Positions 2,448-57,554 of a stretch of DNA of 60,201 bases are shown piece after piece. Source of the stretch: Deltaproteobacteria bacterium (GTDB taxonomy: Bacteria; Desulfobacterota; Desulfobacteria; Desulfobacterales; ETH-SRB1); NCBI GenBank assembly GCA_030262895.1, contig JAJSZW010000004.1:1-60201 (forward strand). Direction: 5' to 3'. Below the pieces are notes generated by a model. The model worked only from the letters and a program-made list of their open reading frames with translations, was not told the DNA's origin and did not search any database. Position 1 is the stretch's first letter. The number at the start of each line of letters is the position of its first letter. Position numbers and translations under genes: made by a program.

Positions 2448-2450
2448 TTT

Positions 2451-4295
2451 TTACTTTTCAAGCTCTTCCAGTTTCTTTTCGAACTTAGCCTGCTTTTTTT
2501 CCAGAGAGCCTGTAAGCTTTTCCAGCTCGTCAAAAATGCGGTCTATTTCAGACTGGCGCTTGTGAATGGACCGGGAAAACTCGACAATTTTTTTACCGTC
2601 CTGGTTCTGAGATGCTTCCTGCATAGCCTGGTTAAGCTCTGAAAGCTCATCTTCAAATCTTCCTATATCATTTTCCGCCTTTGCTATGTTCTGCTCTATC
2701 GGCGTGAGAACTCTTCCCCTTTCTGTGACTATCTCTGAGCGTCTTCGCCTGAGTTCCTTTTTTGTCAATTTTAAAACAGCTTTTTCCCCTTCGGGCTTCT
2801 GCACAGGACCTTCATGTTTCCATCCTACTTTTTCAAGAAAATCTCCATAACTCCCGGCAAATACTTCAATCCGGTCATTTTGGAAAACAATCAGGCGCTG
2901 GGCAAGGGCATGTAGAAACATTTCGTTGTGGGTAACCATGATCACAACACCGTCAAAGCTGTCGATTGCAGCCAGCAGCGCATCGCATGATTCCATATCC
3001 AGGTGGTTGGTCGGTTCATCAAGAAGCAGAAGGTTTACCGGCGTTACAAGAAGCTTGCCCAGCATTACTCTGCTTTTTTCACCCCCTGAAAGGACACTGA
3101 TTTTCTTTAAAGCATCATCGCCTTCAAACATCATGGCGCCGCAGATATTGCGGGCCGACTGCCTGTCAACATCAGAATGTGAACTCAGCATCTCCTCTTC
3201 CACGGTTCTTTCGTCAACCAGGCTTCTGATGTTGGTCTGCTCAAAAACTCCTTTTATGATCCTGGGGTTGTATGTAACCTCACCCTGTTGAGGGGTAATG
3301 GCTCCTGCAAGAAGTTTAAGCAGAGTTGTTTTGCCTTTTCCGTTTTTGCCCACAATACAGATCCGCTCACCAGATCCGATGGAAATGTTAAAATTCCTTA
3401 TAAGCGGTTTGTCAGGCTGGTATGAAAAGGACACATCTTTGGCCGTCATCACATGTTTTCCCGAAAACGTGCTGCTTTTAAAGGAAAAATCAAGAGACTT
3501 GATTTTCTCAAGTCTTTCCAGCTTTTCTGTTTTCTTAAGGGTTTTAATCCTGGACTGAACCATGTTCGCAAGTCTCGCCTTGGCCCTGAACCTTGATATG
3601 AACTGCTCAACTTCTTTTCTGCGCCGCTCGTCGTTTGCGCGGGTTTTTTCGTATATCTCCTCATCCTGGGCGAGCTGGGCATAATACTTTCCTGTATTTC
3701 CTGCGATTTTGCGCACTTTTTTGCGGTGGAGGCCGACCGTATGGGTGATGATCTTGTCCATGAAGCTTCTATTATGTGTGATGAGCATTACTTCATGCGG
3801 CCAGTTAAGCAGAAAACGCTCAACCCAGCGTATGGATGTAATGTCAAGATAATTGGTAGGCTCGTCGAGCAGAAGCAGGTCCGGCTCAGATACAAGCACT
3901 TTTGCAAGATTCAGGCGAACCTGGTATCCGCCTGAAAACTCCAGCGGGTCTTTTTCCATGTCGGCTTGAGAGAAACCCAGACCTGTAAGGATTTTCTCAA
4001 CTTTCCAGCTATGATCACGTTCCGATTCCGGAAGGCCCCTCATCCCTTCTCTGAGCACGGATTTTTCTGTAAATTCTATTTGCTGGCGAACATAACCAAT
4101 CCTGTAATTCCGGGGTATGACAATAGCCCCATTGTCCATTGATTCTTCACCGGCCATGAGCCCGAAAAGAGTTGTCTTCCCGTGCCCATTCCTTCCAACA
4201 AGCCCAATCCTCTCACGAGGATTGATCTTAAAACTGACTCCTTCAAAGAGTACTCGGTTGCCGAAGCTTTTTGTGATATTTTCTACGCTAATCAT
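2451..4295 (-). CDS. ABC-F family ATP-binding protein
   Basis: Two ABC cassettes (GRNGHGKT/FSGG/LLLLDEPTN; GKNGKGKT/LSGGE/LLLLDEPTNHLD), no TM segments, C-terminal coiled coil. Confidence 0.93.
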   Translation of the reverse strand: MISVENITKSFGNRVLFEGVSFKINPRERIGLVGRNGHGKTTLFGLMAGEESMDNGAIVIPRNYRIGYVRQQIEFTEKSVLREGMRGLPESERDHSWKVEKILTGLGFSQADMEKDPLEFSGGYQVRLNLAKVLVSEPDLLLLDEPTNYLDITSIRWVERFLLNWPHEVMLITHNRSFMDKIITHTVGLHRKKVRKIAGNTGKYYAQLAQDEEIYEKTRANDERRRKEVEQFISRFRAKARLANMVQSRIKTLKKTEKLERLEKIKSLDFSFKSSTFSGKHVMTAKDVSFSYQPDKPLIRNFNISIGSGERICIVGKNGKGKTTLLKLLAGAITPQQGEVTYNPRIIKGVFEQTNIRSLVDERTVEEEMLSSHSDVDRQSARNICGAMMFEGDDALKKISVLSGGEKSRVMLGKLLVTPVNLLLLDEPTNHLDMESCDALLAAIDSFDGVVIMVTHNEMFLHALAQRLIVFQNDRIEVFAGSYGDFLEKVGWKHEGPVQKPEGEKAVLKLTKKELRRRRSEIVTERGRVLTPIEQNIAKAENDIGRFEDELSELNQAMQEASQNQDGKKIVEFSRSIHKRQSEIDRIFDELEKLTGSLEKKQAKFEKKLEELEK

Positions 4296-4655
4296 TTGGA
4301 GTATGCCTTTAATCTTGTAATCTTTATCAAGTCAAGCTATATGTGGATTTTATTTCCGTCAACCATATATCACAAGTATTAAAAACTGCAATTCTCAAAG
4401 TAACTTCTCAATAAGCAAGGTCTCAACATAATAGAAACTTGGGGCAACTCATCCTTTCCCTCTCTGGGGGAAAGGCAATTTGATTGTCGTATCCCACCCG
4501 ACCGCCCCCACGTCCCCATAAGCGCTTATGCCCCACGTCCCCCACCAGGGTAAGGGGAAAAAGGTGTCCAGCTCGGAGAGGGTATGGGCGGTCAGACTTT
4601 ATTGTTGACCCAATCGAACCTCGGTGATAAAAAAACGATGAATGGAGATTTGACC

Positions 4656-5732
4656 ATGAACGTTGCTCATCATGTTATAAGAAATGCCAGGAGTTATAGG
4701 AGATGGTCTGCACTGGTTGTTGGCCTTTCTCTATTTATTATTTTTTGTGTTGGAACGTCTCAAGGTAGTGTCGGCGATGAATTCAAGATAGTGAGAGTTA
4801 AGAAGGGAGATTCGGTTAGTTGTATCTCTTTTAAGCTTTATAAAAAGTATAATAAGATGATCGTAGACTCAATCCGTTCATGTAACCCTGAGATGAAAGA
4901 TATAAACCTGATTTACGTTGGGCAAAAGCTGAGATTTCCACGATTGAGTTATATTGAACAGGGAAAATATCTCTCCAAAAAAGAGATAAAGGCGAGAAAA
5001 AAGAGACCGGTAGCAGCTTCAGAAGAAAAGGAACAGAGAAAGAAGATGCTCAAGATGGAGGCGTTTATAACCTATATAGCAGGCGATGTGGAGATCCTTC
5101 GCCAAGGCACCAGCGATTGGCGGCCTGCAAAAATGAATGAGGAGTTATCTGAAGGGGATCGGATCAAGGTAAAGAAGAATTCAATGGCTGAATTAATAAC
5201 CGAAAAGAATAGCGTGATTCGTCTGTCTGAAAATTCGGCGTTCGAGATTACTAAGCTCGAAAAAGATCCTGTGAAAAAAACAGAGACATCAAAGTTTGCA
5301 TTATCTCTGGGAAGACTATGGAACAAAGCAAGAAAGCTTTTAAGTCCTAGATCAGAATATACCGTAAGTACTCCTACTGCCATCTCCGGCATTCGTGGAA
5401 CGGTATACAGTATAGATATTCTGGCGAACAGCGATACCCGCTTCAAGACCTATTCCGGTTCCATAGACGTCTGGAATCCTTGTGAGAGACCAGCAGGTGA
5501 TATGATGCCACCTAAAAAGGTATCAGGGCCTGTTCCGGTTGCGGGACCTCATCCGGTAAGCATGAAAGAATGGACCTCCATTATACTTACAAAACATCAA
5601 CAGCTTGTAGTAACCAAACAGGGTCCCTTAAAAAAGGAGGCTTTCGATCCTTTAAAGGACAGAGATGACGCATGGGTTAAATGGAATGTGGAAAGGGATC
5701 AAGATTTTGAAAAAAGTGAACCCTGGCTTTAG
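4656..5732 (+). CDS. Secreted or membrane-anchored LysM + FecR-domain protein
   Basis: N-terminal hydrophobic segment; LysM (VRVKKGDSV...NLIYVGQKLRFP); FecR-like beta domain (LSEGDRI, VIRLSENS, VSTPTAISGIRGT). Start moved from 4584 to the ATG after GGAG. Confidence 0.8.
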   Translation: MNVAHHVIRNARSYRRWSALVVGLSLFIIFCVGTSQGSVGDEFKIVRVKKGDSVSCISFKLYKKYNKMIVDSIRSCNPEMKDINLIYVGQKLRFPRLSYIEQGKYLSKKEIKARKKRPVAASEEKEQRKKMLKMEAFITYIAGDVEILRQGTSDWRPAKMNEELSEGDRIKVKKNSMAELITEKNSVIRLSENSAFEITKLEKDPVKKTETSKFALSLGRLWNKARKLLSPRSEYTVSTPTAISGIRGTVYSIDILANSDTRFKTYSGSIDVWNPCERPAGDMMPPKKVSGPVPVAGPHPVSMKEWTSIILTKHQQLVVTKQGPLKKEAFDPLKDRDDAWVKWNVERDQDFEKSEPWL

Positions 5733-8157
5733 AAAATCCTACCTTGTTGGTTTAACCATTACTCTTTTGATTATTCCCTTGATGCTTATTGATCCTGATG
5801 TCTTTAAGCTTGTCGAGCTGAAGTCGCTCGACTTTCGCTTTGCCCTTAGGGGACAATCCGAACATGGCAGAGACGTAGTCATTGTCAGCATAGATGACAA
5901 GAGTATTTCCAAGATAGGTAACTGGCCGTGGGGCAGGGAAAAGCATGCTATAGTGATAGATAAGCTGAAACAAGCCGGTGCCAGGGTGATCGCCTTTGAT
6001 GTCTATTTTCAAGAAACAGGCGGTGGCGTATTGAGTCGTGAAAATAAAAGACTGGTGGATTCAGTTCGTAAAGCGGGAAACGTTATCCTTCCTTTGTACT
6101 TTAACCTTAACAAACGGGAAAAAAGCAGGGGAGAAGCTGAATTAGAAAACATAGGGTTGTTTGCTATAAGGGATGTTGAAAATCGAGAATTGCTTAATGA
6201 GTACCCGGTGGTTAGAGGATATGAACTATTTTCATCCTTTCCAGAACTAAATCGAGCCGCTTTCGGTATGGGTCATATCAATATGATTACTGACAAAGAT
6301 GGGATAGTAAGAAAAGAACTGATGGTTGTGGGCTATAAAAACGGATATGTTCCTTCATTAGCTTTGAAGGTAGCCCAAAAATACCTGGGAGTGGACAACA
6401 AAAACATGACATTGATTGGGGGAGAAGGTGTTGCGTTAGAAGACAGAAAGATACTCATATCTCCGGAACAGATAAGTGGTGCCATGTTGTGGGGGGTGGT
6501 CCATATCAACTATATAGGTGGTTATAGAACATTCGATTACGTTTCTTTTGTTGATGTTATCAATGACAGGGTTCCGACGGACACCTTCAGGGATAAAGTC
6601 GTTCTTATTGGCGCAACTGCCGCAGGTTTGTATGATTTTCATTCAATCCCATTTGCCACGGTATTTCCCGGGATAGAAAAACAGGCCACCGTGATAGATA
6701 ATATCATTCACGGAGATTTTATCACAAAGCCCTTTCAGTCAGATGTTTTGAGCCTAATCTTATGTATCTTCATTGGCTTGGCATTGACTTTTTTGATACC
6801 GCGGATGAGGTTGTTGCATACCATGATCATGGTGTGCGTGCTAACAGCGGTTATCATTTTGGCTGGATATGTCGCGTTCGCAAAGGCGGACTCCTGGATA
6901 AACATGACCTATCCCATAGTTACAACGTGGTTTGTATTTCTCTCATCTGTTCTGACACTGTACGCTTCAGCTAGGAGGGGGGAGCACATAGCTCTTGAGA
7001 AAGGCCATGAAGCAATAAAAATGCTCGGGCTTTCTTATCAAGAAAAAGGTTCCTTGGAACTGGCCTATAATACTTATAACAAGTTACCTCTCAATGGGGA
7101 GGTCATGACATTATTATACCACCTCGCAATACAGTTGGAAAAGAAGCGTAAGGATTCTCTCGCCGTACAGATCTATAAGAAAATTCATAATAAGGACAAG
7201 GACTTCGAGGATGTGGCCCAGCGACTGAGTACATTTGGCGTAAAGACACTTGAACCAACCTCGGACGTCAGTACCATTTCGCTAAAGCAAGGCCAGACAT
7301 TGGGACGCTATGAGATAGTTAAAGAGCTTGGAAAAGGTGCGATGGGTGAGGTCTATTTAGCCAAGGACGCTCATATTGATCGACATGTGGCAATTAAAAC
7401 GTTCCGTTTTGGTCGGGAGATAGATGAGAAGTCATTACGAACGATCAAAGAGAATCTTTTGCGCGAAGCCCGGATGGCAGGGAAATTGTCTCACCCCAAC
7501 ATAGTCACTATTTATGATGCAGGGGAGGATTGGGATCTATCTTACATTGCAATGGAGGTGCTGGAAGGAGTTGAATTACCCAATTATTGTAAACCTGGGA
7601 ACTTCTTTCCGTATGAAAGGGTTGTCGAAATCGTTTCATCTGTTGCCTGTGCTCTCGATTATGCTCACGACCACGGGGTTATTCATCGGGACATTAAGCC
7701 GGCTAACATTTTGATTCAGCAGGTGGGTGGTATAAAAGTCACTGACTTTGGGATAGCGTGCGTCAAAGAGAAAAGGGATCACAGGGAAATTGCCGGGACC
7801 CCTGTCTATATGTCTCCTGAGCAGATTAGTGGCCATGAAATCGATGGCCGTACAGATCTCTATTCCCTTGGTGTGGTCTTGTTTGAACTGTTGACCGGCA
7901 GAAAGCCATTTACGGCTCCAAATCTCGTAACGTTAAGGAAAAAAATTGTGAATGACCCGGTTCCTCAATTACGAGAAATAAGGGGGGGAGTACCCGAATA
8001 CTTTCAATCGATCATTAACAAGCTTCTGGAGAAAGATAAGGAGAAGAGATACAGCCGCGGAGAAGATTTGGTGAATGACATGAAAAAGGCAAGGATGGGT
8101 TCCTTTGAAGACGGAGGCACCATCTATCTGGACCTGGATCAAGATCCGAAGAAATAG
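5716..8157 (+). CDS. CHASE2-domain membrane Ser/Thr protein kinase
   Basis: CHASE2 (VVIVSIDDKS, WPWGR, IAFDVYF, DKDGIVR, VLIGATAAGL), 3 TM helices, Hanks kinase (LGKGAMGEVY, VAIK, HRDIKPAN, DFG, YMSPEQ). The GTG start overlapping the FecR gene end is my choice; the ORF track starts at 5665. Confidence 0.9.
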   Translation: MNPGFRKSYLVGLTITLLIIPLMLIDPDVFKLVELKSLDFRFALRGQSEHGRDVVIVSIDDKSISKIGNWPWGREKHAIVIDKLKQAGARVIAFDVYFQETGGGVLSRENKRLVDSVRKAGNVILPLYFNLNKREKSRGEAELENIGLFAIRDVENRELLNEYPVVRGYELFSSFPELNRAAFGMGHINMITDKDGIVRKELMVVGYKNGYVPSLALKVAQKYLGVDNKNMTLIGGEGVALEDRKILISPEQISGAMLWGVVHINYIGGYRTFDYVSFVDVINDRVPTDTFRDKVVLIGATAAGLYDFHSIPFATVFPGIEKQATVIDNIIHGDFITKPFQSDVLSLILCIFIGLALTFLIPRMRLLHTMIMVCVLTAVIILAGYVAFAKADSWINMTYPIVTTWFVFLSSVLTLYASARRGEHIALEKGHEAIKMLGLSYQEKGSLELAYNTYNKLPLNGEVMTLLYHLAIQLEKKRKDSLAVQIYKKIHNKDKDFEDVAQRLSTFGVKTLEPTSDVSTISLKQGQTLGRYEIVKELGKGAMGEVYLAKDAHIDRHVAIKTFRFGREIDEKSLRTIKENLLREARMAGKLSHPNIVTIYDAGEDWDLSYIAMEVLEGVELPNYCKPGNFFPYERVVEIVSSVACALDYAHDHGVIHRDIKPANILIQQVGGIKVTDFGIACVKEKRDHREIAGTPVYMSPEQISGHEIDGRTDLYSLGVVLFELLTGRKPFTAPNLVTLRKKIVNDPVPQLREIRGGVPEYFQSIINKLLEKDKEKRYSRGEDLVNDMKKARMGSFEDGGTIYLDLDQDPKK

Positions 8158-8187
8158 GAGTGCTTATGCCGGATGAGACACCGTCAT

Positions 8188-8256
8188 CCTTCAATAGCCG
8201 CTTGGAATCTTGGTCAGGGCGAAAGCGAGGTTTTGACATTGGCATTGGAAAAACCT
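8188..8256 (+). pseudogene. Fragment of a DUF3368-type PIN toxin gene
   Basis: Manual translation PSIAAWNLGQGESEVLTLALEKP matches the LGxGESE motif of DUF3368 PIN proteins; no intact frame. Confidence 0.55.
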
Positions 8257-8325
8257 CGCACAGGAGTTTCCACATCTTCGGGAATTTTTTAAAAGACCAA
8301 CGGTCGTTAATTAGGAGACAATACT

Positions 8326-8607
8326 ATGCAACCATATGAAGTAAAAATAGAAGTACCTCATGAAGTGTTATTAAATCTTCATAAATCACCTGATGAGGCT
8401 GCCGAAGATATCAAACGACAGGCAGCTATTCGTTATTATAAAAAACGCTCTCTCTCATTGGGAAAAGCAGCAGATCTGGCGGGGATGAGCAGGTTTGAGT
8501 TCATTGATTATTTACGTTTTAATGATGAACCTGTTTTTCAATACACGGATGAAGAACTTGAAGAAATCAAAAGAGACGCAGCAGAGTTAGAGAAAGTTAT
8601 AAGATGA
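8326..8607 (+). CDS. UPF0175-family antitoxin
   Basis: SLSLGKAADLAGMSRFEF HTH motif; ATGA overlap with the downstream PIN gene. Confidence 0.85.
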   Translation: MQPYEVKIEVPHEVLLNLHKSPDEAAEDIKRQAAIRYYKKRSLSLGKAADLAGMSRFEFIDYLRFNDEPVFQYTDEELEEIKRDAAELEKVIR

Positions 8608-8975
8608 GCAATATTGTCATATCCAATGCTACGCCAATTATATCCCTTTGTTCAGTTGGGTACGAGTTTGTTCTGAAGGAACTCTTTCACCACATATTTA
8701 TACCCCAAGCTGTTGATATGGAATTGAGATCACTTGACAAGCCTGGATCACATTTTAGCGATTTAAAATGGGTTGAAGTTGTTTCAGTTCAGAATAAAGA
8801 AGTCATTGTTTTCCTCAGAAAAGATATTGATAAAGGCGAGGCGGAAACAATTGCGTTGGCAAAACAGATGAATGCATACGTCATCATAGACGAAAATGCT
8901 GGTTATCAAATAGCCAAACATTTTGGTTTACCAGTGGTTAGAACGCTTTCCATTCTCCGCCGCAAGCGGATTTAG
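8604..8975 (+). pseudogene. DUF3368 PIN-domain toxin, 3'-truncated
   Basis: VISNATPII, IPQAV..EL, DKGEAETIALA, IIDE; ends just after RTLSIL, lacking the usual C-terminal part. Confidence 0.7.
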
Positions 8976-9072
8976 TGTATACCCTTTCATTCGGAAACTA
9001 AGAAAGCAAAGAAAAATCCAGTAAATCCTGCCTGTTCCGTCAAATTCCAGAGGATTATTCGACTGAGGTCAC

Positions 9073-9123
9073 TCCTGTCTAATAAAGGCAGAAACTTATG
9101 AACTAATGGGCGCCCCCCACTCT
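9073..9123 (+). repeat. Repeat A, copy 1 (TCCTGTCTAA...CAGAAACTTATRAACTAAT..GCGYCC)
   Basis: Near-identical copies begin at 10273 and 11639. Confidence 0.85.
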
Positions 9124-9143
9124 AATCAAGGTTTGACCCCAAA
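9123..9143 (+). repeat. Repeat B, copy 1 (TAATCAAGGTTTGACCCCAAA)
   Basis: Exact 21-bp direct repeat of 10077-10097; the pair brackets one TA module. Confidence 0.9.
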
Positions 9144-9209
9144 TTCAAAGCCGATAAATTTCAAATCGGCTCGCTATTCCCCGGTCAACTTGAGTGTTTG
9201 GTTCGGCAA

Positions 9210-9491
9210 TTAAGCAAATTGAAGTTTTAGTTTTTTTCCAAGTGCAACAGCAACATTCTCCAGAGTTAGAAGCGTTACTGAAGAATTTTTAGGATCCAGC
9301 AATCTGTCTACCGAAGAACGGCTTGTTTTCATCATTCTAGCCAAAGCTGCTTTTGAGATATGACGTAATTCCATCTCCTGCCTAATCTGATAAGCAAGTA
9401 CACGCTTTAAAGCTGTTGCTTCAGCTTCAGCCATTAACCCTTCCTTTTGAAGAAAATCGTCGAAACTGCTTCCGATATGTTTACCTTTCAT
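9210..9491 (-). CDS. XRE/HigA-like antitoxin
   Basis: KHIGSSFDDFL..EG, ISKAALARMMKTSRSSVDRLLDP HTH; directly downstream of a RelE-like gene. Confidence 0.85.
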   Translation of the reverse strand: MKGKHIGSSFDDFLQKEGLMAEAEATALKRVLAYQIRQEMELRHISKAALARMMKTSRSSVDRLLDPKNSSVTLLTLENVAVALGKKLKLQFA

Positions 9492-9492
9492 T

Positions 9493-9843
9493 TTAATCCT
9501 CCTGATACTCTTTCAACCGTGACAGGGCTGTTTTTAATTCATTCTTAGGAATTTTTTGGGACTTCTTAATGAAACCATGCAGCAGAATCATGACATTTCC
9601 ATCAATTGTGAATAAAACTCTGGCAATCCCATTTGGAATTTTTGACCGTACCTCCCATAGAAACGGCTTGATTTTTTCAACCAAAGGCATGCCAAGAGGC
9701 CATCCGAACTGAACTGTCTTAATATCTTCACCAATTATTTTCTTATGCGCTGTTGATAGCGACTGCAGCCATTTTCTAACCGGCTCTGTTCCTGAACCCG
9801 TCTTATAAAAATGAACTTTTAGTTTAATATCATCGAAATCCAT
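9493..9843 (-). CDS. RelE/HigB-like toxin (Gp49/DUF891 type)
   Basis: FYKTGSGTEPVRKWL, GWPLGMP, LWEVRS, ILLHGFIKKSQK. Confidence 0.88.
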   Translation of the reverse strand: MDFDDIKLKVHFYKTGSGTEPVRKWLQSLSTAHKKIIGEDIKTVQFGWPLGMPLVEKIKPFLWEVRSKIPNGIARVLFTIDGNVMILLHGFIKKSQKIPKNELKTALSRLKEYQED

Positions 9844-9852
9844 GTATTATAT

Positions 9853-9878
9853 ATGTACCAAAATTAGTACATTTGTCA
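9853..9878 (-). promoter_or_regulatory. TA autoregulatory operator next to a -35 box
   Basis: Palindrome ATGTAC-N8-GTACAT immediately after TTGACA on the minus strand, upstream of the toxin. Confidence 0.6.
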
Positions 9879-10076
9879 AATATTTTTTGGCTCTATATGG
9901 ATTTCAGGTTGGTGGCAGGTTTTTTTTGGTAGCTGGAGGCTTTTGTCTCGAAAGGCAGAGAATATAAGATAGATAAATCAAGAAGTTATATGCCATAATT
10001 TCGACAGGCTGGGTAAGCCAAACGAGGATATTACTTCACCAACCTGGAATCCATATAGAGCCTAAACTAAATGAAA

Positions 10077-10114
10077 TAATCAAGGTTTGACCCCAAACCG
10101 AGACCCCAAACCGA
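10077..10114 (+). repeat. Repeat B, copy 2, with 13-bp tandem duplication
   Basis: TAATCAAGGTTTGACCCCAAA followed by (GACCCCAAACCGA)x2. Confidence 0.88.
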
Positions 10115-10194
10115 CCTAAAAAACGGATTACGGTTAAGCTGTGTTGCTTATTATATCACTCACTTATGTTCCCACATAATCCGTTAGAATCAGA

Positions 10195-10218
10195 TTAATA
10201 ATTAAGATGCGACCCTGT
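10195..10218 (+). repeat. Repeat C, copy 1 (TTAATAATTAAGATGCGACCCTGT)
   Basis: Exact 24-bp direct repeat of 15584-15607. Confidence 0.9.
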
Positions 10219-10223
10219 TTGTC

Positions 10224-10314
10224 AACTTTCGTAACAAATGTCCCCTTTGAGATTGCCCGCTTGGAGAGTTCATCCTGTCTAAAAAAACAGAAACTTATAA
10301 ACTAATATGCGTCC
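10224..10314 (+). repeat. About 90-bp direct repeat containing repeat A, copy 2
   Basis: AACAAATGTCCCCTTTGAGATTGCCCGC...CATCCTGTCTAAAAAAACAGAAACTTATAAACTAAT matches 11589-11680. Confidence 0.9.
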
Positions 10315-10444
10315 AAGGTTTCACAAGTTTCCCTCGATAGGATGTCCCCTTTATATCTGTCAATTCAAAAAGTGCGCTTGCGTAAACTTTCTTTGATTTT
10401 TTGATGAAAGTGTATATAATAAAAGCAAGTAATATATCTGGACT

Positions 10445-10700
10445 GCACACCTCAGCCGATTGGAAAACGGAAGATACCAGCCTTCTATTGAAGTTTTAAA
10501 AAAAACTGGCTGACACACTTCAGGTAGGCACGAACTATCTGCTTAGCGATACTGATGATGAAGCAGAAGAGATAAGGATTAAGGATCAATCTTTTGCTGA
10601 TAAAATCAGATTGCTGGATTCTTTGGACGGCAAAGAAAAAGAAACTGTTATCAACGTACTTGATGTCATGCTTACAAAAAATGCTCAACCTTTTAACAGA
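10445..10700 (+). pseudogene. XRE-family HTH regulator pseudogene
   Basis: Manual translation AHLSRLENGRYQPSIEVLKK/[frameshift in A8 at 10498-10505]/LADTLQVGTNYLLSD...DKIRLLDSLDGKEKETVINVLD; 5' end missing. Confidence 0.75.
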
Positions 10701-10734
10701 AAAAAATGAACATATTTAAGACGGGAGACGGATC

Positions 10735-10956
10735 ATGCCGGAAGCAAACTATAACCAAGTCATATCCGAGATAAAAACATTAAATTTATCAGACCAACTT
10801 CGTCTTTTGGAAGAAATGGCAACGCTGATTCGCAAAAAGACAAGCGGAACACGACCCCGCAGCATTATGGAACTTAAAGGAAAAGGCAAGGATATCTGGA
10901 AGGGGCTTAATATAAAAGCGTATATTGATGAGGAAAGATCATCGTGGAATGGATAA
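10735..10956 (+). CDS. Putative VapB-type antitoxin
   Basis: 73 aa, RBS present, SIMELKGKGKDIW...YIDEERSSW; overlaps the downstream PIN gene. Confidence 0.75.
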   Translation: MPEANYNQVISEIKTLNLSDQLRLLEEMATLIRKKTSGTRPRSIMELKGKGKDIWKGLNIKAYIDEERSSWNG

Positions 10957-11381
10957 ACGTTCTACGGGGGAAAACGGTTGGCCTTGATACTGCGCCGCTG
11001 ATTTATTTTATTGAAGAAAACCCCGCTTATATTGAAATTGTACGGTTTTTCTTTGAAGCAATGGACAGAGGTGATTTCATAGTTGTCACTTCAACCGTGA
11101 CCTTACTGGAAGTACTGGTGCATCCATTACGCAGCAATAACAGAGAACTGGCAACAGAATACCGAGACATCTTGCTTAATTCAAGACTGATGACTTTGGA
11201 AGTTTCAAATGCCATTGCGGAACAGGCAGCCCAGCTCAGGGCTACCCATAATATCCGCACACCAGATGCCATTCAGATAAGCGCTGCATTAAACGCAGGT
11301 GCAACCCATTTTTTCACCAATGATATCAGACTGCCTGAAATTCCATCCTTACAGATTCTTTCCATTGATGCACTTGTCTAA
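10944..11381 (+). CDS. vapC: VapC-family PIN toxin
   Basis: VGLDTAPLIY, TSTVTLLEV, IRTPDAIQISAA, FFTND acidic PIN motifs. Confidence 0.88.
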   Translation: MEWINVLRGKTVGLDTAPLIYFIEENPAYIEIVRFFFEAMDRGDFIVVTSTVTLLEVLVHPLRSNNRELATEYRDILLNSRLMTLEVSNAIAEQAAQLRATHNIRTPDAIQISAALNAGATHFFTNDIRLPEIPSLQILSIDALV

Positions 11382-11437
11382 AAAAATTTGTCCTGGGCAT
11401 ATGTAGAAGCAGCGAACTTTGCGATCAGGCATAGTGT

Positions 11438-11532
11438 GCCAGACGGTTCGACTATCGGAAAAAGGTGTGCACAAGATAGAGACCTATCCCAACCCCGGCA
11501 AAAATAAACGCCATACGAATCCAGATTTTGCG
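11438..11532 (-). pseudogene. Duplicated 3' half of the small membrane-protein gene at 13483-13671
   Basis: 95-bp near-identity to 13469-13563; encodes RKIWIRMAFIFAGVGIGLYLVHTFFR* without its 5' half. Confidence 0.8.
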
Positions 11533-11588
11533 CCATGCCCTTATCCAGCAACGAGCAAAAGTATTTGTCTGCAAGAAAAAAAGTTAGG

Positions 11589-11729
11589 AACGTTCGGAAC
11601 AAATGTCCCCCTTTGAGATTGCCCGCCTGGAGGGTTCATCCTGTCTAAAAAACAGAAACTTATAAACTAATGAGCGTCCCCCACTCCACACGCTTATAAA
11701 CTAATGAGCGTCCCCCACTCCACACGCTT
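11589..11729 (+). repeat. About 90-bp repeat/repeat A copy 3 plus a 34-bp tandem duplication
   Basis: Matches 10224-10314; (CTTATAAACTAATGAGCGTCCCCCACTCCACACG)x2 at 11659-11726. Confidence 0.9.
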
Positions 11730-11753
11730 CTAATACACATCGCGCTTCCCATC

Positions 11754-12305
11754 TTGAAACACATAGGAACTCCTGTCGATTGGAAAAAGCTTGCAAAGGA
11801 AACGGGCATGGGTTCCCACCACACGGCACACGATTACATCAGTATACTTTCTGACTCCTATATCCTTTATTTCCTTCAAGCCTTAGATACCAACAAAAAT
11901 TTGCCAAAGCTAAGAAAAGGGAAAAAAATCTACCCCTTTGATCCCGTCATTAGCACTGTTTTACTCACATATCATCCTTATTTAAAGATTGAAGACTCCA
12001 TGCTTATCGAAGCTGTCGTAGGGAGTCATCTTTTGAGGAAAAGCCGATTTATAAACGCCGGCCTGTCTTCGATTTCGGATCTCTTTTATTGGCAAAGCAA
12101 GGTGGGCAAAGAAGTCGATTTTGTGTTTCTTGATCAGAAGGGGCCACAATCTATTGAGGTGAAATACCAGAATCACGTTACGTTGCGAGACAGCATCACC
12201 ATGATCAGACATTTTAAGAAGGGCCTGCTTCTTTCCAAAAAAGATTTTGAAGTTGGCTCCAATGCCTTAATGCTGCCTGTCTCATGGTTTCTCGCCATGA
12301 TTTAA
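11754..12305 (+). pseudogene. C-terminal DUF4143 part of an AAA_14 ATPase (5'-truncated)
   Basis: KKIYPFDP, LIEAVV..HL, FYWQ...KEVDFV, IEVK; no ATPase domain; begins just after the repeats. Confidence 0.75.
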
Positions 12306-12398
12306 TTCCTAAATCTTTACCTCGCCTGCCCCATATGTCCAAATTATCACAAATAATTTGATTTAAGGTGAATTTCATCATATAAATCGTTTATAAAA

Positions 12399-12522
12399 AT
12401 GGACAAACTAATAAATCGAATTCAACAGATTGATTTGCCCTCAAACCGTTCCGCTTTTTTGTGGGGACCCAGGAAGACTGGAAAAACAACCTTATTAAGA
12501 CAACTGTTTCCCAATGCATATC
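12399..12522 (+). pseudogene. N-terminal fragment of an AAA_14/DUF4143 ATPase
   Basis: SAFLWGPRKTGKTTLL Walker A, then the frame runs into the 3' end of the antisense antitoxin gene. Confidence 0.75.
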
Positions 12523-12900
12523 TCATAGGAAAACTTTATATTCGGTACGTAAAGCCCTGGCTAAACGCTTTGCCATGTTTTTACCAATGGAACGTTTGCC
12601 ATTCTCCATTTCAGAGATGTGGCTTGGTTTGACTCCTATCATATCCGCGAGTTGTTTTTGCGTCAATCCTTCACGGGAACGAAGCCCTCGCAAGGCATGA
12701 CCTATATGTAATTCGGGAAAGACTTCTTCAATAGAATATAAGTTGCCATCGTCTTCCTCTATATTTTGTAGAGACATTCCTGCCAGGTTAAGGATCTTTT
12801 CAATGGCCTCACTTATCAATCCCGCTTTGTCGGAAGGTACGCCGCGCAAGCGGATCTCAACAAATCCGTTCATAATCTGCGTTTTCGTGAGTTCCAACAT
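12523..12900 (-). CDS. HigA-like XRE antitoxin
   Basis: LRGLRSREGLTQKQLADMIGVKPSHISEMENGKRSIG; start reassigned to MLELTK after GGAGG. Confidence 0.85.
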   Translation of the reverse strand: MLELTKTQIMNGFVEIRLRGVPSDKAGLISEAIEKILNLAGMSLQNIEEDDGNLYSIEEVFPELHIGHALRGLRSREGLTQKQLADMIGVKPSHISEMENGKRSIGKNMAKRLARALRTEYKVFL

Positions 12901-13153
12901 ATCGCACCTCCACATGCTTACTCTCTTTTCTTGTAACTTTCCAAATGGCAACATAGGTTGGCTTGCCCTTTTTTAGGTGGCAATGATAGCAATGCTTCTT
13001 GCCTTTTATCGTGCCATAGTTATACCACGTATTTCTCGTAGGACCAAGTTGCTTCATTTCCAAAACCAAAGCGAAAAGGCTTTCTCGCACTTTAGGCGGA
13101 AGATTTTTGGCTTGCTTTTTAGCCTTACTTGTAAATCTTACGTCCCACACCAT
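12857..13153 (-). CDS. HigB/RelE-like toxin
   Basis: WDVRFTSKAKKQAKNLP, YHCHL, VRYVGTHE; toxin-first arrangement. Confidence 0.8.
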   Translation of the reverse strand: MVWDVRFTSKAKKQAKNLPPKVRESLFALVLEMKQLGPTRNTWYNYGTIKGKKHCYHCHLKKGKPTYVAIWKVTRKESKHVEVRYVGTHENADYERIC

Positions 13154-13163
13154 AGTTACCTAT

Positions 13164-13187
13164 TACCATCTATTGGTATTTTGTCAA
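13164..13187 (-). promoter_or_regulatory. TA operator/promoter
   Basis: TACCA-N5-TGGTA palindrome beside TTGACA on the minus strand. Confidence 0.55.
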
Positions 13188-13482
13188 GCAGGAGTTACCA
13201 AAATCAAGAAAAAATGGGGATATCTTCCGTTTCCCGGAAGGATGTAACCATCATGGGCAAGAGCGGTTATTAAGTCATACCAAGAAGGATCTGTTGTTGA
13301 CGGAAACCGGGCGCCCGTACTTCAAAAAGTGGCTGGCCGGGCTGCAAAATGGCCAGTTCCAAAGCAGCGGCGGCCCGCTGGCGTTGGAAGTTGGAAGCCG
13401 GTTCATTGAGTATCAAATGGGCATCCAAAAAGAGTAGGATAATTTTTTGATGCTCAGTCATACCGTTGGCCAGACGGTTCGA

Positions 13483-13671
13483 CTATCGGAAAAAAGTGTG
13501 CACAAGGTACAGGCCTATCCCAACCCCGGCAAAAATGAACGCCATACGAATCCAGATTTTTCGAGCAATGGTCAGCTTTCCTTCTGCCTTCAAGTAATCG
13601 CGGAAAGAAATACCGAGGAAGACGACCGCTATAGCTATAAAGATGATTCCCAGAGATGATGGGCTGTTCAT
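13483..13671 (-). CDS. Small two-TM hypothetical protein
   Basis: 62 aa with two hydrophobic segments; its 3' half is conserved at protein level in the duplicate at 11438-11532. Confidence 0.65.
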   Translation of the reverse strand: MNSPSSLGIIFIAIAVVFLGISFRDYLKAEGKLTIARKIWIRMAFIFAGVGIGLYLVHTFFR

Positions 13672-13703
13672 AATTATTCTCAGATTATAATTTGTGTTCT
13701 TTT

Positions 13704-13864
13704 ACCTAAGTTGAGCGATTTTTTGCGAAGAAATGTGCTAAGATCTTGATGCAGCAAGGTTTGCGAAAAGCGTAGGCATACCAATGGATATATCGAGACT
13801 TTTCGCAAGTCCTTGATGCACAAGAGATTGGTACAGGTTGAGTAAAAAATCGCTCAATTTAGGT
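13704..13864. mobile_element. Palindromic MITE-like element (161 bp)
   Basis: Termini ACCTAAGTTGAGCGATTTTTT / AAAAAATCGCTCAATTTAGGT; internal TTGCGAAAAG / CTTTTCGCAA stem. Confidence 0.75.
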
Positions 13865-13870
13865 TTTATA

Positions 13871-15226
13871 CTACGAGTGAATCAGTTGTCCGGCAAAATA
13901 CCACTCACCCTCACGAAAACGGCTCCCATTCGTTTTGATCCACTCAGCATATTTTCCTATGGTCTGCTTTTGCTGTGATACCAGCATGTCGGTTTCAAAG
14001 GGGAAGTCGATGCCGTAGCGGATTACCAATTCTTCATACGCCATTTGCCGTACTATACGCGGGCTTTTTTCTGATTCCAGGTTTTCTAACAGACAGGCTG
14101 GCGAATAAGGTTTGCCGTTACGATACCGAATTGCGGGGTTAAAGTGTGATTTATTTTCTGCCCACCACTTTTGCCAGTCTTCAGGTTTTTGTGAGATGCG
14201 GGTGATGGTGGTGCCTGGTTCTTCTCCCGGGGAATAGAGACTTTCCCCGCGTTTCAGCTTTTCAAGTTCTTCTTCAAACAGTTCGTCTTCATCTATTTCT
14301 TCAGGAATAAAAACTTCTTCGTAAATTCCTGCGCCGGTAATGAGATTGAATGCTATTGCCGCAGACTCGGCAAAATCGGCATTACCAAGATCTGATAGAA
14401 GTGTGTCAACAGCCGAAATATCGCCGAGCAAACCCAATGCGATCAGGCAATCAGCGCTTGCCTTGTTGTTATTGGCACTTTCTATCAGAACCGCTGCCGT
14501 TGAGCGATTGCCTCCAAGTCCAAGCAGCAGAAACGGCCAATTCCCTGAATGGACAGAATGCAAGCAATGGTCTAAGGCTTGCGGATCGCCGATACGCAAA
14601 AGAGCCAGCGCTGTTGCAGAACAGACTGATTCATCTTCGTGTTTAAGATACTTATTGAAAAGGAGGGTGCGCGCATATTGTTCGCGGACGCGGCCAATAG
14701 ACCAAATAATATTAGATACTGCTTGTGAATTGTTTTGCTGCAATGCATTGAGAAGTTCTTTTCCTGAAGACAACCGTCGATACCCTATAAGTTTAGCAGC
14801 AACAGGAATTAGCCTTTGATCCCCTTCTGATAGAATACGAATAAATTCATCTGTCCATTCCGACGGCAGCTCATGGTTGAGGGCGTCACTTATGGCTTGC
14901 ACCCTTTCTGTATCCTTTGGATCAAGGGCTTCCAAACATTCCTGCACAAAGTCCAGCTGGTTTTGCCGACAGAAAACTCTTACCGCTGCATGGAGTTCGC
15001 CAAAGTCGCCTTCCATTGCCTGAGTTTTGCAAACATTCAATGCCAGATCTTCGCCAACTACCAAAGCGTCTATATGCGCTTCAAAACGTTCCTCAAAGTC
15101 TGCGATGTCCAGCCACGTTATTTCGGGATCATCGAACAGGGTCAGACGCTGCTCGTAAAGGAAGGAGGCTTCCTCAAGATGTTCCTGGTATAGTTCTGTT
15201 TCAAAATCTAATATTGTTTGGGTCAT
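13871..15226 (-). CDS. TIGR02270-like HEAT-repeat protein of vgrG/DUF2169 clusters
   Basis: EHLEEASFLY..R, EERFEAHIDAL, RYRNGKP; last gene of the effector block. Confidence 0.8.
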   Translation of the reverse strand: MTQTILDFETELYQEHLEEASFLYEQRLTLFDDPEITWLDIADFEERFEAHIDALVVGEDLALNVCKTQAMEGDFGELHAAVRVFCRQNQLDFVQECLEALDPKDTERVQAISDALNHELPSEWTDEFIRILSEGDQRLIPVAAKLIGYRRLSSGKELLNALQQNNSQAVSNIIWSIGRVREQYARTLLFNKYLKHEDESVCSATALALLRIGDPQALDHCLHSVHSGNWPFLLLGLGGNRSTAAVLIESANNNKASADCLIALGLLGDISAVDTLLSDLGNADFAESAAIAFNLITGAGIYEEVFIPEEIDEDELFEEELEKLKRGESLYSPGEEPGTTITRISQKPEDWQKWWAENKSHFNPAIRYRNGKPYSPACLLENLESEKSPRIVRQMAYEELVIRYGIDFPFETDMLVSQQKQTIGKYAEWIKTNGSRFREGEWYFAGQLIHS

Positions 15227-15500: not shown

Positions 15501-15607
15501 GCCGCATCTTAAATTTTGAAAAACAGTTCCCTATGCTGTGATATTTATAAATACAACATATTTATGCCCAATATCCACAATAGTTAATAATTAAGATGCG
15601 ACCCTGT
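15501..15607. repeat. Repeat C copy 2 with an inverted partner (REPIN-like)
   Basis: GCCGCATCTTAA (15501) ... TTAAGATGCGAC (15591); 15584-15607 is identical to 10195-10218. Confidence 0.75.
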
Positions 15608-57282: not shown

Positions 57283-57554
57283 CTATGAGAACAGCATATC
57301 TCCCGGACTTTTGACACCCTTACCTCCACGATTTCCTTTTCACCCATCTCGGCAGGATGTCGTTTGCCATGATAAAAGATAAATTTCCTTATCCATTCGA
57401 TATAAGCCTGCTCTGTTCGAATACTATAGTGTTTGCAACGAATTCTGTTTCGAACCTGGTCCAATAGCTTCGGTTGTCTCGTGTCTGATCTATAAAATGC
57501 TTTTCTTTCCTCATAATGCTTTGCTTTTGCACGAGATTTCAATGAATTTTTCAC
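57283..57554 (-). pseudogene. intI: Integron integrase with the catalytic domain deleted
   Basis: N-term [22 protein letters not shown]...HGKRHP.EMG..EI joined out of frame to the C-terminus [16 protein letters not shown]. Confidence 0.9.

What the first reader, a model, noticed from the sequence alone, without database searches (positions are those of the whole stretch)
8166..13700. Repeat-punctuated toxin-antitoxin array: candidate non-integron cassette-capture system
Seen: four TA modules of different families plus at least six gene fragments in 5.5 kb. Repeat A recurs at 9073, 10273 and 11639, with one TA module in each of the two intervals. Exact repeat B (9123, 10077) brackets the RelE/XRE module, and a 90-bp repeat (10224, 11589) brackets vapBC. 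The repeats end in TGACCCC, TGTCCCC, CGTCCCC or CGACCC and lack attC (RYYYAAC..GTTRRRY) structure, and modules occur in both orientations. Inference: a hotspot where small modules are serially inserted at these motifs, truncating earlier cargo. It may be driven in trans by a Y1/HUH (RAYT-like) transposase. I know of no named system with this layout.
Basis: partly seen in the sequence, partly recalled or inferred. Interest (0 to 1): 0.78.

Follow-up and report, generated by a model that had tools for sequence, protein, structure and literature searches.

The report
Transposon-end repeats punctuating a toxin-antitoxin junkyard
The repeats that separate these toxin-antitoxin genes are leftover ends of a little-studied family of jumping genes, and they mark the points where this stretch of a marine sediment bacterium's genome has been repeatedly cut, filled and reshuffled.

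Summary
Repeats A, B and the 90-nt repeat are real, and they bracket three Pfam-supported toxin-antitoxin (TA) modules, one putative one and seven gene fragments. They are not an unnamed system. Repeat A and repeat B are terminal inverted repeats (TIRs) of "TIRtrons", elements that encode a Y1/HUH tyrosine transposase with a DnaA-type HTH tail (TIRYT; Di Nocera 2013, Quentin 2018). The genome holds 144 such TIR sites on 63 contigs, at least 24 TIRYT gene starts and four full-length genes. The B repeat even carries the last eight codons and the stop codon of a TIRYT gene.

All five TIR sites scored in the window lie in this locus, on one strand. Sister genomes carry the same blocks (TA1, vapBC) in other combinations, with breakpoints at TIR tips. 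Similar TIR-punctuated arrays with other cargo (RhuM, BrkB, an ATPase, other TA modules) occur elsewhere in this genome and in relatives. There is no attC structure.

The Y1/HUH guess is therefore supported. "Hotspot at the motifs" is partly supported. "Cassette capture" is unproven, because either the TIR units or the cargo could be the moving part.

The scan has filed TIRtrons before on other DNA; the eight notes it listed do not mention arrays of cargo modules. Verdict: a known class in a new arrangement, of moderate interest.

The parts
8184..8268 (+). Fragment of a second DUF3368 PIN-like toxin gene, at the left edge of the variable region
   Evidence: 98.8% identical to part of the intact 144-aa DUF3368 gene of G009:C146. 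Homology with G001:C227 and an X6 contig stops at 8182/8183.
8326..8975 (+). TA1: UPF0175 antitoxin (8326-8607) and a DUF3368/PDC-S70-type PIN-like toxin (8604-8975) that lacks its 3' end
   Evidence: Pfam UPF0175, E 2.4e-22. PADLOC PDC-S70, E 3e-31, covering profile positions 2-121 of 161/162. Three relatives carry 157 nt more at 8953/8954.
9073..9122 (+). Repeat A1: solo A-type TIRtron TIR, tip pointing right
   Evidence: tip scored at 9120. In run X2 a 20-nt tandem copy of the tip is inserted behind 9102 (table 4).
9123..9143 (+). Repeat B1: minimal solo B-type TIR, directly abutting the A1 tip
   Evidence: Exact 21-mer shared with 10077-10097. Same sequence as the TIR beside the TIRYT gene of G009:C146.
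9210..9843 (-). TA2: Gp49/RelE-like toxin (9493-9843) and HTH_37 antitoxin (9210-9491)
   Evidence: Pfam Gp49, E 1.2e-19; HTH_37, E 2.6e-6. Only ~71% DNA matches in 2 of 25 family genomes.
9885..10066 (.). 30-nt inverted repeat pair with a 122-nt spacer, upstream of TA2; unique to this locus in the genome
   Evidence: I1, 93% complementary. No other copy in G000.
10066..10097 (+). Repeat B2: right-end remnant of a B-type TIRtron, holding the last 8 codons (KLNEIIKV) and TGA stop of a TIRYT gene plus the TIR tip
   Evidence: Read from the sequence against the C-terminus of the G009:C146 gene. Tip scored at 10096. An X6 contig of 2233 nt fits 9683-10095 and then runs on unlike the window (table 8).
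10195..10218 (+). TIR-like tip ending in GCGACCC, same strand; a second exact copy lies at 15584-15607
   Evidence: A G009 counterpart was seen.
10224..10314 (+). Repeat A2: the 90-nt A unit (inner tip-like word AATGTCCCC plus an A-type TIR) with a shortened tip
   Evidence: Homology with G010:C229 starts at 10313, exactly at the tip.
10315..11393 (+). vapBC block: degenerate B-like TIR remnant, decayed XRE-HTH gene, TA3 (73-aa protein at 10735-10956, PIN toxin at 10944-11381)
   Evidence: PIN, E 6e-16. 98.5% identical block in G010:C229. In G001:C193 the A-TIR tip abuts the sequence that follows 11393 here.
11391..11574 (-). 3' remnant of a paralogous DUF202 gene (the partner of the 360-aa HEAT-like gene)
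   Evidence: 97.9% identical to G001:C193, where the gene is whole and sits next to the 360-aa gene. 94% identical to 13469-13563.
11533..11720 (+). Spacer plus repeat A3 (90-nt unit, tip at 11684) and its 34-nt tandem copy (tip at 11718)
   Evidence: G007:C121 holds 11527-11685 at 95% identity, and homology ends at the tip.
11754..12530 (+). Two pieces of AAA_14/DUF4143 ATPase genes: a C-terminal half (11754-12305), then an N-terminus (12399-12530)
   Evidence: Pfam DUF4143, E 2.4e-16; AAA_14, E 1.8e-4, below the curated cut-off. An X2 contig is unlike the window before 11725 (table 8).
12523..13153 (-). TA4 (putative): 98-aa protein of no known family (12857-13153) and an HTH_3 protein (12523-12954)
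   Evidence: HTH_3, E 2.3e-14. HigA/Y4mF-type NCBIfam hits fall below their cut-offs. The 98-aa protein has no hit.
13285..13461 (-). 3' end of a 360-aa HEAT-like gene that is whole in relatives
   Evidence: 86-90% identical to G009:C146, G012:C317 and G001:C193. The ORF end matches the C-terminus of the 360-aa protein.
13469..13671 (-). Intact DUF202 gene (62 aa), at the right edge of the variable region
   Evidence: Pfam DUF202, E 1.6e-5. Syntenic with the HEAT gene in G012:C36.

Best explanation
The locus is a decaying, strain-variable island between a kinase gene and a DUF202/HEAT gene pair. The repeats that punctuate it are solo ends (TIRs) of TIRtrons. TIRtrons are elements whose only gene is a RAYT-like Y1/HUH tyrosine transposase with a DnaA-C-type HTH tail (TIRYT).

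Shown: the repeats are such TIRs. The genome is full of them. All five TIR sites scored in the window sit here on one strand. TIRs sit directly against other TIRs. Several homology breakpoints with sister genomes fall at TIR tips.

Inferred: TIRtrons and their gene-less TIR units insert preferentially right next to an existing TIR tip, so ends pile up head to tail. Tip-adjacent breakage, deletion and re-joining then truncate neighbouring genes and bring blocks together. TA modules are over-represented among what survives because losing them is penalised. TIRYT proteins encoded elsewhere in the genome would supply the activity in trans.
For: - Identity. The A core is the end of elements whose 5' and 3' gene remnants encode TIRYT. 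The full genes C114:3037-4038 and C144:2712-3713 are bracketed by inverted TIRs. They hit Y1_Tnp (E 4.7e-11 and 6e-9), Bac_DnaA_C (E 5e-6, below its cut-off) and REP_Tyr_transpos (below its cut-off).
- The B repeat is the TIR beside the Y1_Tnp gene of G009:C146.
- Abundance. There are 24 TIRYT N-terminal sites. Full-length frames: three of 337-339 aa and one of 322 aa.
- 144 TIR sites lie on 63 contigs. Five are in the 60-kb window, all within 9120-11718 and on one strand.
- 24 adjacent TIR pairs lie 120 nt or less apart.
- Tip junctions: A1|B1 at 9122/9123. G010 homology starts at 10313. G007:C121 homology ends at 11685. In G001:C193 the A tip abuts the sequence found at window 11394. In G010, vapC is cut by an A-type right end. 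Three different TIR types sit at the left end of the vapBC block in three genomes.
- Toxin genes of six Pfam families: 9 of 51 outside this contig lie within 1 kb of a TIR site, against 2.5 expected (binomial p = 7e-4).
- Literature. TIRtrons/TIRYT, the GGGGWSAS consensus, and TIR families occurring singly, as dimers or in clusters (PMC3733652, passages; PMC6006769, passages).
Against: - No TIRYT activity has ever been tested. Only 2 works in the library mention the name.
- The window's TIR tips fit GGGGWSAS at 7 of 8 positions, not 8.
- 38 of 51 toxin genes lie more than 3 kb from any TIR site, and both features may simply share accessory regions.
- Same-strand bias of neighbouring TIRs 301-3000 nt apart is absent genome-wide: 17 same against 15 opposite.
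- Many breakpoints are plain internal deletions with no TIR: 8953/8954, 10441/10684 and 11103.
- TA2 and TA4 have no near-identical copy in 25 family genomes, so their history cannot be read.
- The genome is an 85%-complete assembly of 257 contigs. No listed public contig bridges the A2 or A3 junctions.
Confidence: 0.6

Rival explanations
1. True cassette system. A module together with one TIR unit is the mobile unit. A TIRYT nicks one strand at a TIR tip and again at the next tip on the same strand. This releases a circle that carries the cargo and one TIR, which then re-enters at another tip. Head-to-tail arrays would build up this way, much as integron cassettes or IS91/ISCR-type one-ended capture do.
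For: - Arrays of same-strand TIR units with 0.9-2 kb modules recur. In this genome: C116 (ATPase | TIR | BrkB | TIR | RhuM | TIR TIR | HsdS), C39 (TIR | vapBC | TIR | UPF0175), C26 and C144.
- In relatives: G010:C35 (HsdS | TIR | BrkB | TIR | RhuM-Fic | TIR | RhuM | TIR unit | Phd-ParE) and G011:C67 (HEPN-MNT | TIR | RhuM | TIR unit).
- The RhuM block ends at the same base, directly against the next TIR tip, in two different contexts.
- The order of BrkB and RhuM next to HsdS differs between G000 and G010.
- B1 and B2 are exact 21-nt direct repeats around TA2, as expected from a circle with one TIR recombining with a resident TIR.
- The vapBC block lies exactly between an A tip and the flank that the tip touches in G001.
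Against: - TA1 has no fixed left end: 8185, 8260, 8279 and 8307 in different genomes.
- RhuM in G004:C33 and BrkB in G006:C201 lack the TIR unit, so units may insert beside resident genes instead.
- No circle junction or clean empty/filled pair at one orthologous site was found.
- The skip joints seen in public contigs have sides under 30 nt at a repeated motif, so they prove nothing.
- The HsdS genes of G000 and G010 gave no DNA match at E <= 1e-20, so the two arrays are not shown to be the same locus.
Confidence: 0.25
2. Passive repeats. The TIRs are dead debris. The patchwork arose by ordinary homologous recombination between dispersed repeats, plus random deletion, in non-essential DNA.
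For: - Most TIRYT genes are fragments: of the 23 TIRYT-like frames found (18, excluding a response-regulator false match, and 5), 4 are full-length.
- The genome carries many unrelated MITE families, for example 127 copies of the 13704-13864 element.
- D2a and D2b are paralogue remnants, not insertion footprints.
Against: - Junctions fall at or within about 13 nt of the tip rather than anywhere inside the repeats.
- Three different TIR types occupy the same junction beside the vapBC block in three genomes. Recombination between like repeats cannot produce that.
- Short tandem copies of tip plus flank recur (window A3, G001, G007, G009, G010) and vary between samples (table 4).
Confidence: 0.12
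3. An integron cassette array without a nearby integrase (CALIN), served by the genome's two integron integrases.
For: - Two full IntI genes exist: C37:26630-27571 (466 bits) and C16:55-990 (423 bits), both over the 265-bit cut-off.
- TA cassettes are typical of chromosomal integrons (recalled, not checked here).
Against: - No R''/R' box pair on either strand (0 found, against 1.47 expected).
- The repeats do not fold as hairpins (z = +1.68, +0.87 and +0.94 for the A units).
- Modules lie on both strands.
- The repeats are demonstrably ends of Y1 transposase genes.
Confidence: 0.02

Closest known systems
TIRtrons / TIRYT (Di Nocera, De Gregorio and Rocco 2013, PMC3733652); equals TnpA subclass 2.1 of Quentin et al. 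2018 (PMC6006769)
   Same: A Y1/HUH transposase with a DnaA_C-type HTH tail, flanked by non-hairpin terminal inverted repeats that begin GGGG(A/T)(C/G)A. TIR copies are scattered singly, as dimers and in clusters.
   Different: Here the TIR units stand on one strand between small accessory modules (TA, RhuM, BrkB, ATPase). They mark breakpoints between sister genomes. The passages I read do not describe this. The tips match the consensus at 7 of 8 positions.
REPtrons / REPINs with RAYT (TnpA-REP) (PMC3333891; PMC3116915, listing only)
   Same: A related Y1 enzyme acts in trans on short dispersed repeats that flank its gene. In E. coli the REPtron locus is replaced by the hicAB toxin-antitoxin pair in 24 strains (PMC3333891, passage read).
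   Different: REPs are palindromic hairpins with a GTAG/CGTC tag. The repeats here do not fold, and the proteins score below the RAYT model cut-off (63.9 and 58.4 bits against 80).
Integron cassette arrays / CALINs
   Same: Arrays of small, often TA-encoding modules, each separated by a recombination-site-like repeat. The cargo differs between strains.
   Different: No attC structure, no adjacent IntI, and modules on both strands. The repeats are ends of HUH transposase genes, not tyrosine-recombinase sites.
IS200/IS605 and IS91/ISCR (other HUH elements); recalled from general knowledge and the abstracts listed
   Same: Strand-specific HUH chemistry and insertion next to a short specific sequence. 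IS91/ISCR capture adjacent genes by one-ended transposition.
   Different: Those elements have subterminal hairpins or ori/ter ends and no TIRs. Cargo capture by TIRtrons has not been reported in the papers found.

Membership tests
TIRtron / TIRYT TIR repeat family | Gene for a RAYT-like Y1/HUH transposase, usually with a C-terminal HTH (Bac_DnaA_C, HTH_23 or HTH_28) | tested here: met
   C114 and C144 proteins hit Y1_Tnp at E 4.7e-11 and 6e-9. Bac_DnaA_C scores E 5e-6, below its cut-off. REP_Tyr_transpos scores 63.9 and 58.4 bits, below its cut-off of 80. The G009 gene hits Y1_Tnp at E 1.9e-14. The gene is not in the finding region itself, which keeps only its last 8 codons (10070-10096).
TIRtron / TIRYT TIR repeat family | The gene is flanked by terminal inverted repeats rather than hairpin REPs | tested here: met
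   Inverted ends were read at C114 and C144. Paired outward tips were scored at C144 (2659/3743) and C41 (26547/27573). Folds of the ends are not significant (z = -1.4 and -1.6).
TIRtron / TIRYT TIR repeat family | The TIR begins with GGGGWSAS | tested here: inconclusive
   Window tips read on the other strand are GGGGTCAA, GGGGACAT and GGGG(G)ACGC. That is 7 of 8 positions. The consensus is taken from PMC3733652.
TIRtron / TIRYT TIR repeat family | The window's repeats are the same sequences as TIRs that flank TIRYT genes | tested here: met
   A core: it adjoins TIRYT gene starts (C22, C140) and TIRYT gene ends (C7, C22, C145). B: it adjoins the start and the stop of the G009:C146 gene.
TIRtron / TIRYT TIR repeat family | TIR copies dispersed through the genome as single units, dimers or clusters | tested here: met
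   144 sites on 63 contigs. 24 adjacent pairs lie 120 nt or less apart. A and B cores are present in 13 of 25 other genomes of the family.
TIRtron / TIRYT TIR repeat family | Transposase cuts or joins DNA at the TIRs | not testable with these tools
   No biochemical study was found. Only 2 works in the library hold the terms.
Integron cassette array / CALIN | attC sites: R'' RYYYAAC and R' GTTRRRY boxes forming an imperfect hairpin | tested here: not met
   0 box pairs on either strand of 8100-13900, against 1.47 in shuffles. The A units fold no better than shuffles. No attC covariance model was available.
Integron cassette array / CALIN | Cassettes co-oriented, IntI/attI at one end (for a full integron) | tested here: not met
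   Modules lie on both strands. The IntI genes lie on other contigs, C37 and C16.
REP / RAYT (REPtron, REPIN) | 20-40 nt palindromic repeats with a GTAG or CGTC tag that form hairpins | tested here: not met
   No significant hairpin in the A units. The sequences carry no GTAG-tagged palindrome.
Type II toxin-antitoxin modules | An adjacent small toxin and antitoxin gene pair from known families | tested here: met
   In TA1, TA2 and TA3, at least one partner is above its Pfam cut-off. TA4 meets this only for the HTH partner, and its 98-aa partner has no family. Toxicity was not tested.

The most novel reading that the evidence does not exclude
TIRtron ends act as the recombination sites of a non-integron cassette system. 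A single TIR unit (tip plus a promoter-like leader of about 180 nt) together with its downstream cargo (TA pair, RhuM, Fic, BrkB or ATPase) is moved by a Y1/HUH TIRYT supplied in trans. It is inserted at the tip of another TIR, which builds and reshuffles head-to-tail arrays of addiction and defence genes in these sediment sulfate reducers.
Probability: 0.25. Interest if true: 0.8.

Novelty: new variant of a known kind. Interest (0 to 1): 0.5.

Why it matters
TIRtrons are widespread, but no one has shown what they do. Only two works in the searched library name them. This locus and its sister arrays give a concrete, testable picture. TIR tips behave as preferred junctions. TIR units sit in front of accessory genes. 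The same modules appear in different orders and places in closely related genomes.

If a TIRYT is shown to cut and join at these tips, it would add an HUH-based route for assembling TA and defence-gene islands alongside integrons. It would also explain why such islands in repeat-rich environmental genomes look like patchworks. If not, the locus remains a well-documented example of how dead transposon ends and addictive TA genes accumulate together.

Tried and rejected
- Integron reading. Rejected: the attC box scan found nothing, the repeats do not form hairpins, and the IntI genes lie on other contigs.
- tRNA-like or att-site reading of the 95-nt duplicate (11438-11532 / 13469-13563). Rejected. 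The first copy is 97.9% identical to a whole paralogous DUF202 gene in G001:C193, so the two copies are paralogue remnants. The 247-bp gene-end duplication around an ATPase insert on C22 was not resolved.
- Rfam scan of 7500-14500 at E <= 0.1: no match.
- Public runs. All four runs laid were short Logan contigs. Skip joints at 9145->10075, 10094->11655, 10095->12511 and 10097->13568 have sides of 20-29 nt on a repeated motif. I do not count them as excision events. Depth differences between segments were not used. No listed contig bridges 10095-10330 or 11420-11725.
- Strand bias. Neighbouring TIRs 301-3000 nt apart are 17 same against 15 opposite. Contigs with three solo loci are all-same in 4 of 5 (3 of 4 without the window). 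That is too few to claim a bias.
- Synteny of the kinase gene. There are only 45%-identical kinase domains in five relatives, so the left flank could not be followed.
- The 98-aa TA4 partner has no match in Pfam, NCBIfam, PADLOC or PDB sequences. No structure prediction was run.
- A planned test of TA genes next to TIRYT genes across other phyla (search for related loci) was not run.
- The supplements of PMC3733652 (TIRYT alignment, lists) and PMC6006769 were not opened. They may list TIR families or neighbours that bear on novelty.

Full report
**The observation.**
- The A core lies at 9073-9122, 10273-10321 and 11639-11686, with a 34-nt tandem copy ending at 11720.
- B is an exact 21-mer at 9123 and 10077.
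- A roughly 90-nt unit at 10224-10314 and 11589-11685 is 91-94% identical.

Pfam places UPF0175 at 8326-8607, Gp49/RelE-like and HTH_37 at 9493-9843 and 9210-9491 (minus strand), PIN at 10944-11381 and HTH_3 at 12523-12954. The protein at 8604-8975 matches PADLOC PDC-S70 over profile positions 2-121 of 161/162, so it has lost its end. The 98-aa partner of the fourth pair has no match in Pfam, NCBIfam, PADLOC or PDB sequences. That gives three TA modules with family support and one putative module. Seven gene fragments are listed under parts.

**What the repeats are.** Both repeat cores occur elsewhere in this 3.86-Mb, 257-contig genome. When the flanks of the A-core sites were lined up, one group continued into the reverse complement of a gene start reading MPRQSRIDAPGALHHIIARGIERKRIF. 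Another group followed a gene end reading ...SQPAVSLAVKRGEQLVIRHNYSLKA.

Full copies of such genes (C114:3037-4038, twice; C144:2712-3713) are bracketed by inverted repeats that begin GGGGGACG. They hit Y1_Tnp (E 4.7e-11 and 6e-9). They also hit Bac_DnaA_C and the RAYT model, both below their cut-offs.

A sister genome shows what B is. In G009:C146 a Y1_Tnp gene (E 1.9e-14) starts just inside GGGGTCAAACCTTGATTA. It ends with codons for KLNEIIKV and a TGA stop, which together form the other copy of that repeat. Window 10070-10096 is exactly that gene end.

This architecture was named TIRtron, and its enzyme TIRYT, in 2013. The shared TIR motif is GGGGWSAS, and TIR families occur singly, as dimers or in clusters (PMC3733652, passages read). 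The enzyme is subclass 2.1 of Quentin et al. 2018 (PMC6006769, passages read). The window's tips match that motif at 7 of 8 positions.

**How common they are here.** A regular-expression scan found 24 TIRYT gene starts with at least a dozen different TIR variants. Only four frames are full length. Seeding BLAST with the 21 upstream ends plus the window's A and B gave 144 TIR sites on 63 contigs. The five in the 60-kb window all lie between 9120 and 11718 and all point the same way. The shortened A2 tip and the smaller tip-like words (10236-10245, 10212-10218, 10340-10349, 11601-11611) add to this but were not scored. TIRs cluster: 24 adjacent pairs lie within 120 nt.

**Not an integron.** The genome has two integron integrases above the curated cut-off, on contigs C37 and C16. 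However, no R''/R' box pair exists in 8100-13900 (0 found, against 1.47 in shuffles). The A units fold no better than shuffled sequence (z = +1.68, +0.87 and +0.94). Rfam finds nothing.

**Comparison with sister genomes.** The HEAT gene at 13871-15226 has orthologues in 3 of 12 same-genus genomes.
- G012:C36 keeps DUF202 and HEAT but lacks the 161-nt MITE at 13704-13864.
- G009:C146 has, in place of most of the array, a TIRYT gene, three tandem partial B tips, an intact UPF0175/DUF3368 pair and a 96-aa gene. The window keeps only 85 nt of that DUF3368 gene, at 98.8% identity.
- TA1 (8185-8953) is 94-98% identical in G007:C115, G001:C227 and G004:C23. All three carry 157 nt that the window lacks at 8953/8954.
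- TA1's left end differs in each genome (8185, 8260, 8279, 8307). In three of the five contexts, TIR tips of three different types stand 8 to about 70 nt upstream.
- The vapBC block is 98.5% identical in G010:C229. Homology begins at 10313, the tip of A2. In G010 a different TIR, with the start of its TIRYT gene, occupies that place, and in G004:C76 a third type does.
- In G010, vapC is cut at the equivalent of window position 11281 by an A-type right end with a 35-nt tandem copy.
- In G001:C193 two tandem A tips directly touch the sequence found at window 11394. The window's 10315-11393 therefore lies exactly between an A tip and that flank.
- G007:C121 shares 11527-11685 and diverges at the tip. 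There it shows CGTCCCCCACTT three times, then another TIR type.

**The 95-nt duplicate.** 11391-11532 is 97.9% identical to a whole DUF202 gene that lies beside a 360-aa HEAT-like gene in G001:C193. The 3' end of that 360-aa gene survives at window 13285-13461. The duplicate is therefore the remnant of a paralogous gene pair split by about 1.75 kb of inserted material. It is not an attachment-site footprint.

**Is the pattern general?** Toxin genes of six Pfam families (53 hits) are enriched near TIR sites. Of 51 outside this contig, 9 lie within 1 kb, against 2.5 expected (binomial p = 7e-4). But 38 of 51 lie more than 3 kb from any TIR site, and the two features are not independent.

Other same-strand arrays exist.
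- C39: TIR | vapBC | TIR | UPF0175.
- C26 and C144: TA pairs between tips.
- C116: ATPase | TIR | BrkB | TIR | RhuM | TIR TIR | HsdS-HsdM.
- G010:C35: HsdM-HsdS | TIR | BrkB | TIR | RhuM-Fic | TIR | RhuM | TIR unit | Phd-ParE.
- G011:C67: HEPN-MNT | TIR | RhuM | TIR unit | aminotransferase.

In contrast, G004:C33 has RhuM without the unit, and G006:C201 has BrkB between housekeeping genes without any TIR.

In these arrays the unit is the left-end type: the tip plus about 180 nt with promoter-like words. It sits 5' of the cargo where the transposase gene would be. The RhuM block ends at the same base against the next tip in two contexts.

Genome-wide, however, neighbouring TIRs 301-3000 nt apart show no strand bias, at 17 same against 15 opposite.

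**Public metagenomes.** Parts of the stretch occur in 20 of 24 listed runs from 11 studies of cold-seep and marine sediments. In four runs from four studies, laid as short contigs:
- Contigs bridge A1/B1 into TA2 (9030-9712, 9070-9700, 9103-9712), cover vapBC (10426-11415), and bridge TA4 into DUF202 (12659-13492).
- One X6 contig fits up to 8183 and another up to 10095, and each then runs on unlike the window.
- An X2 contig is unlike the window before 11725.
- X2 carries a 20-nt tandem copy of the A1 tip.
- The MITE-less joint 13699->13864 is present in all four runs.
- Skip joints at B have sides under 30 nt and are not counted.
- No listed contig bridges the A2 or A3 junctions, so misassembly there is not excluded. 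G010:C229 and G007:C121 each support one side of those junctions.

**Reading.** Identity of the repeats as TIRtron ends is close to certain. TIR tips are preferred junctions, and ends accumulate next to ends; several independent junctions support this. Whether cargo modules are mobilised with a TIR, or TIR units simply insert beside genes and later recombine, is open. Only 2 works in the library mention TIRYT or TIRtron. A search for Y1/IS200 elements with passenger or TA genes turned up nothing comparable among the 12 of 40 titles listed. The one related note is that the E. coli REPtron is replaced by hicAB in 24 strains (PMC3333891, passage read). Earlier notes of this scan file TIRtrons on other genomes as a known class and mention tandem repeats at their ends and rearranged neighbours. 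None of the eight listed mentions arrays of cargo modules.

Noticed in passing
window 13704-13864: A 161-nt hairpin MITE (21-nt inverted ends) between DUF202 and the HEAT gene. It has 127 BLAST matches in this genome. It is absent from the orthologous site in G012:C36. A MITE-less joint appears in contigs of 4 of 4 public runs.
   Followed up: partly
G000:C22:25141-28151 (L001 3641-6652): A 247-bp duplicate (96% identical) of the 3' end of a 209-aa gene flanks a 2.5-kb insert. The insert holds a 525-aa ATPase-like gene, a 125-nt MITE and an A-type TIR whose tip points at the partial gene copy. It was not resolved whether this is a paralogue remnant, like the DUF202 case, or a true insertion footprint.
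   Followed up: partly
G000:C37:26630-27571 and C16:55-990; window 57327-57467: Two integron integrase genes score above the curated cut-off elsewhere in the genome. A 131-aa frame in the window matches only the first 47 positions of that model. Their cassette arrays were not examined.
   Followed up: no
G000:C114:3037-4038 and 7502-8518: Two identical TIRYT genes, each with the same flanks, lie in inverted orientation about 3.5 kb apart. A truncated third TIRYT start lies inside each arm.
   Followed up: no
window 11754-12305 and 12399-12530: The C-terminal half of an AAA_14/DUF4143 ATPase precedes an N-terminal piece on the same strand, as if from two tandem genes or a permuted one. Full-length relatives sit next to TIR units on C116 and in G006:C106 and G012:C278.
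   Followed up: partly
L061 (G000:C116) 4090-8180 and L065 (G010:C35) 2285-7640: The inner part of the roughly 180-nt left-end unit is shared by units with different cargo. In G004:C114 it is present upstream of BrkB without the outer 56 nt that hold the TIR, so the unit may be a mosaic of two repeats.
   Followed up: partly
window 9885-10066: A pair of 30-nt inverted repeats (93% complementary) encloses 122 nt just upstream of the RelE-like/XRE pair. It has no other copy in the genome. It may be the operator region of that pair, or a one-off element.
   Followed up: partly
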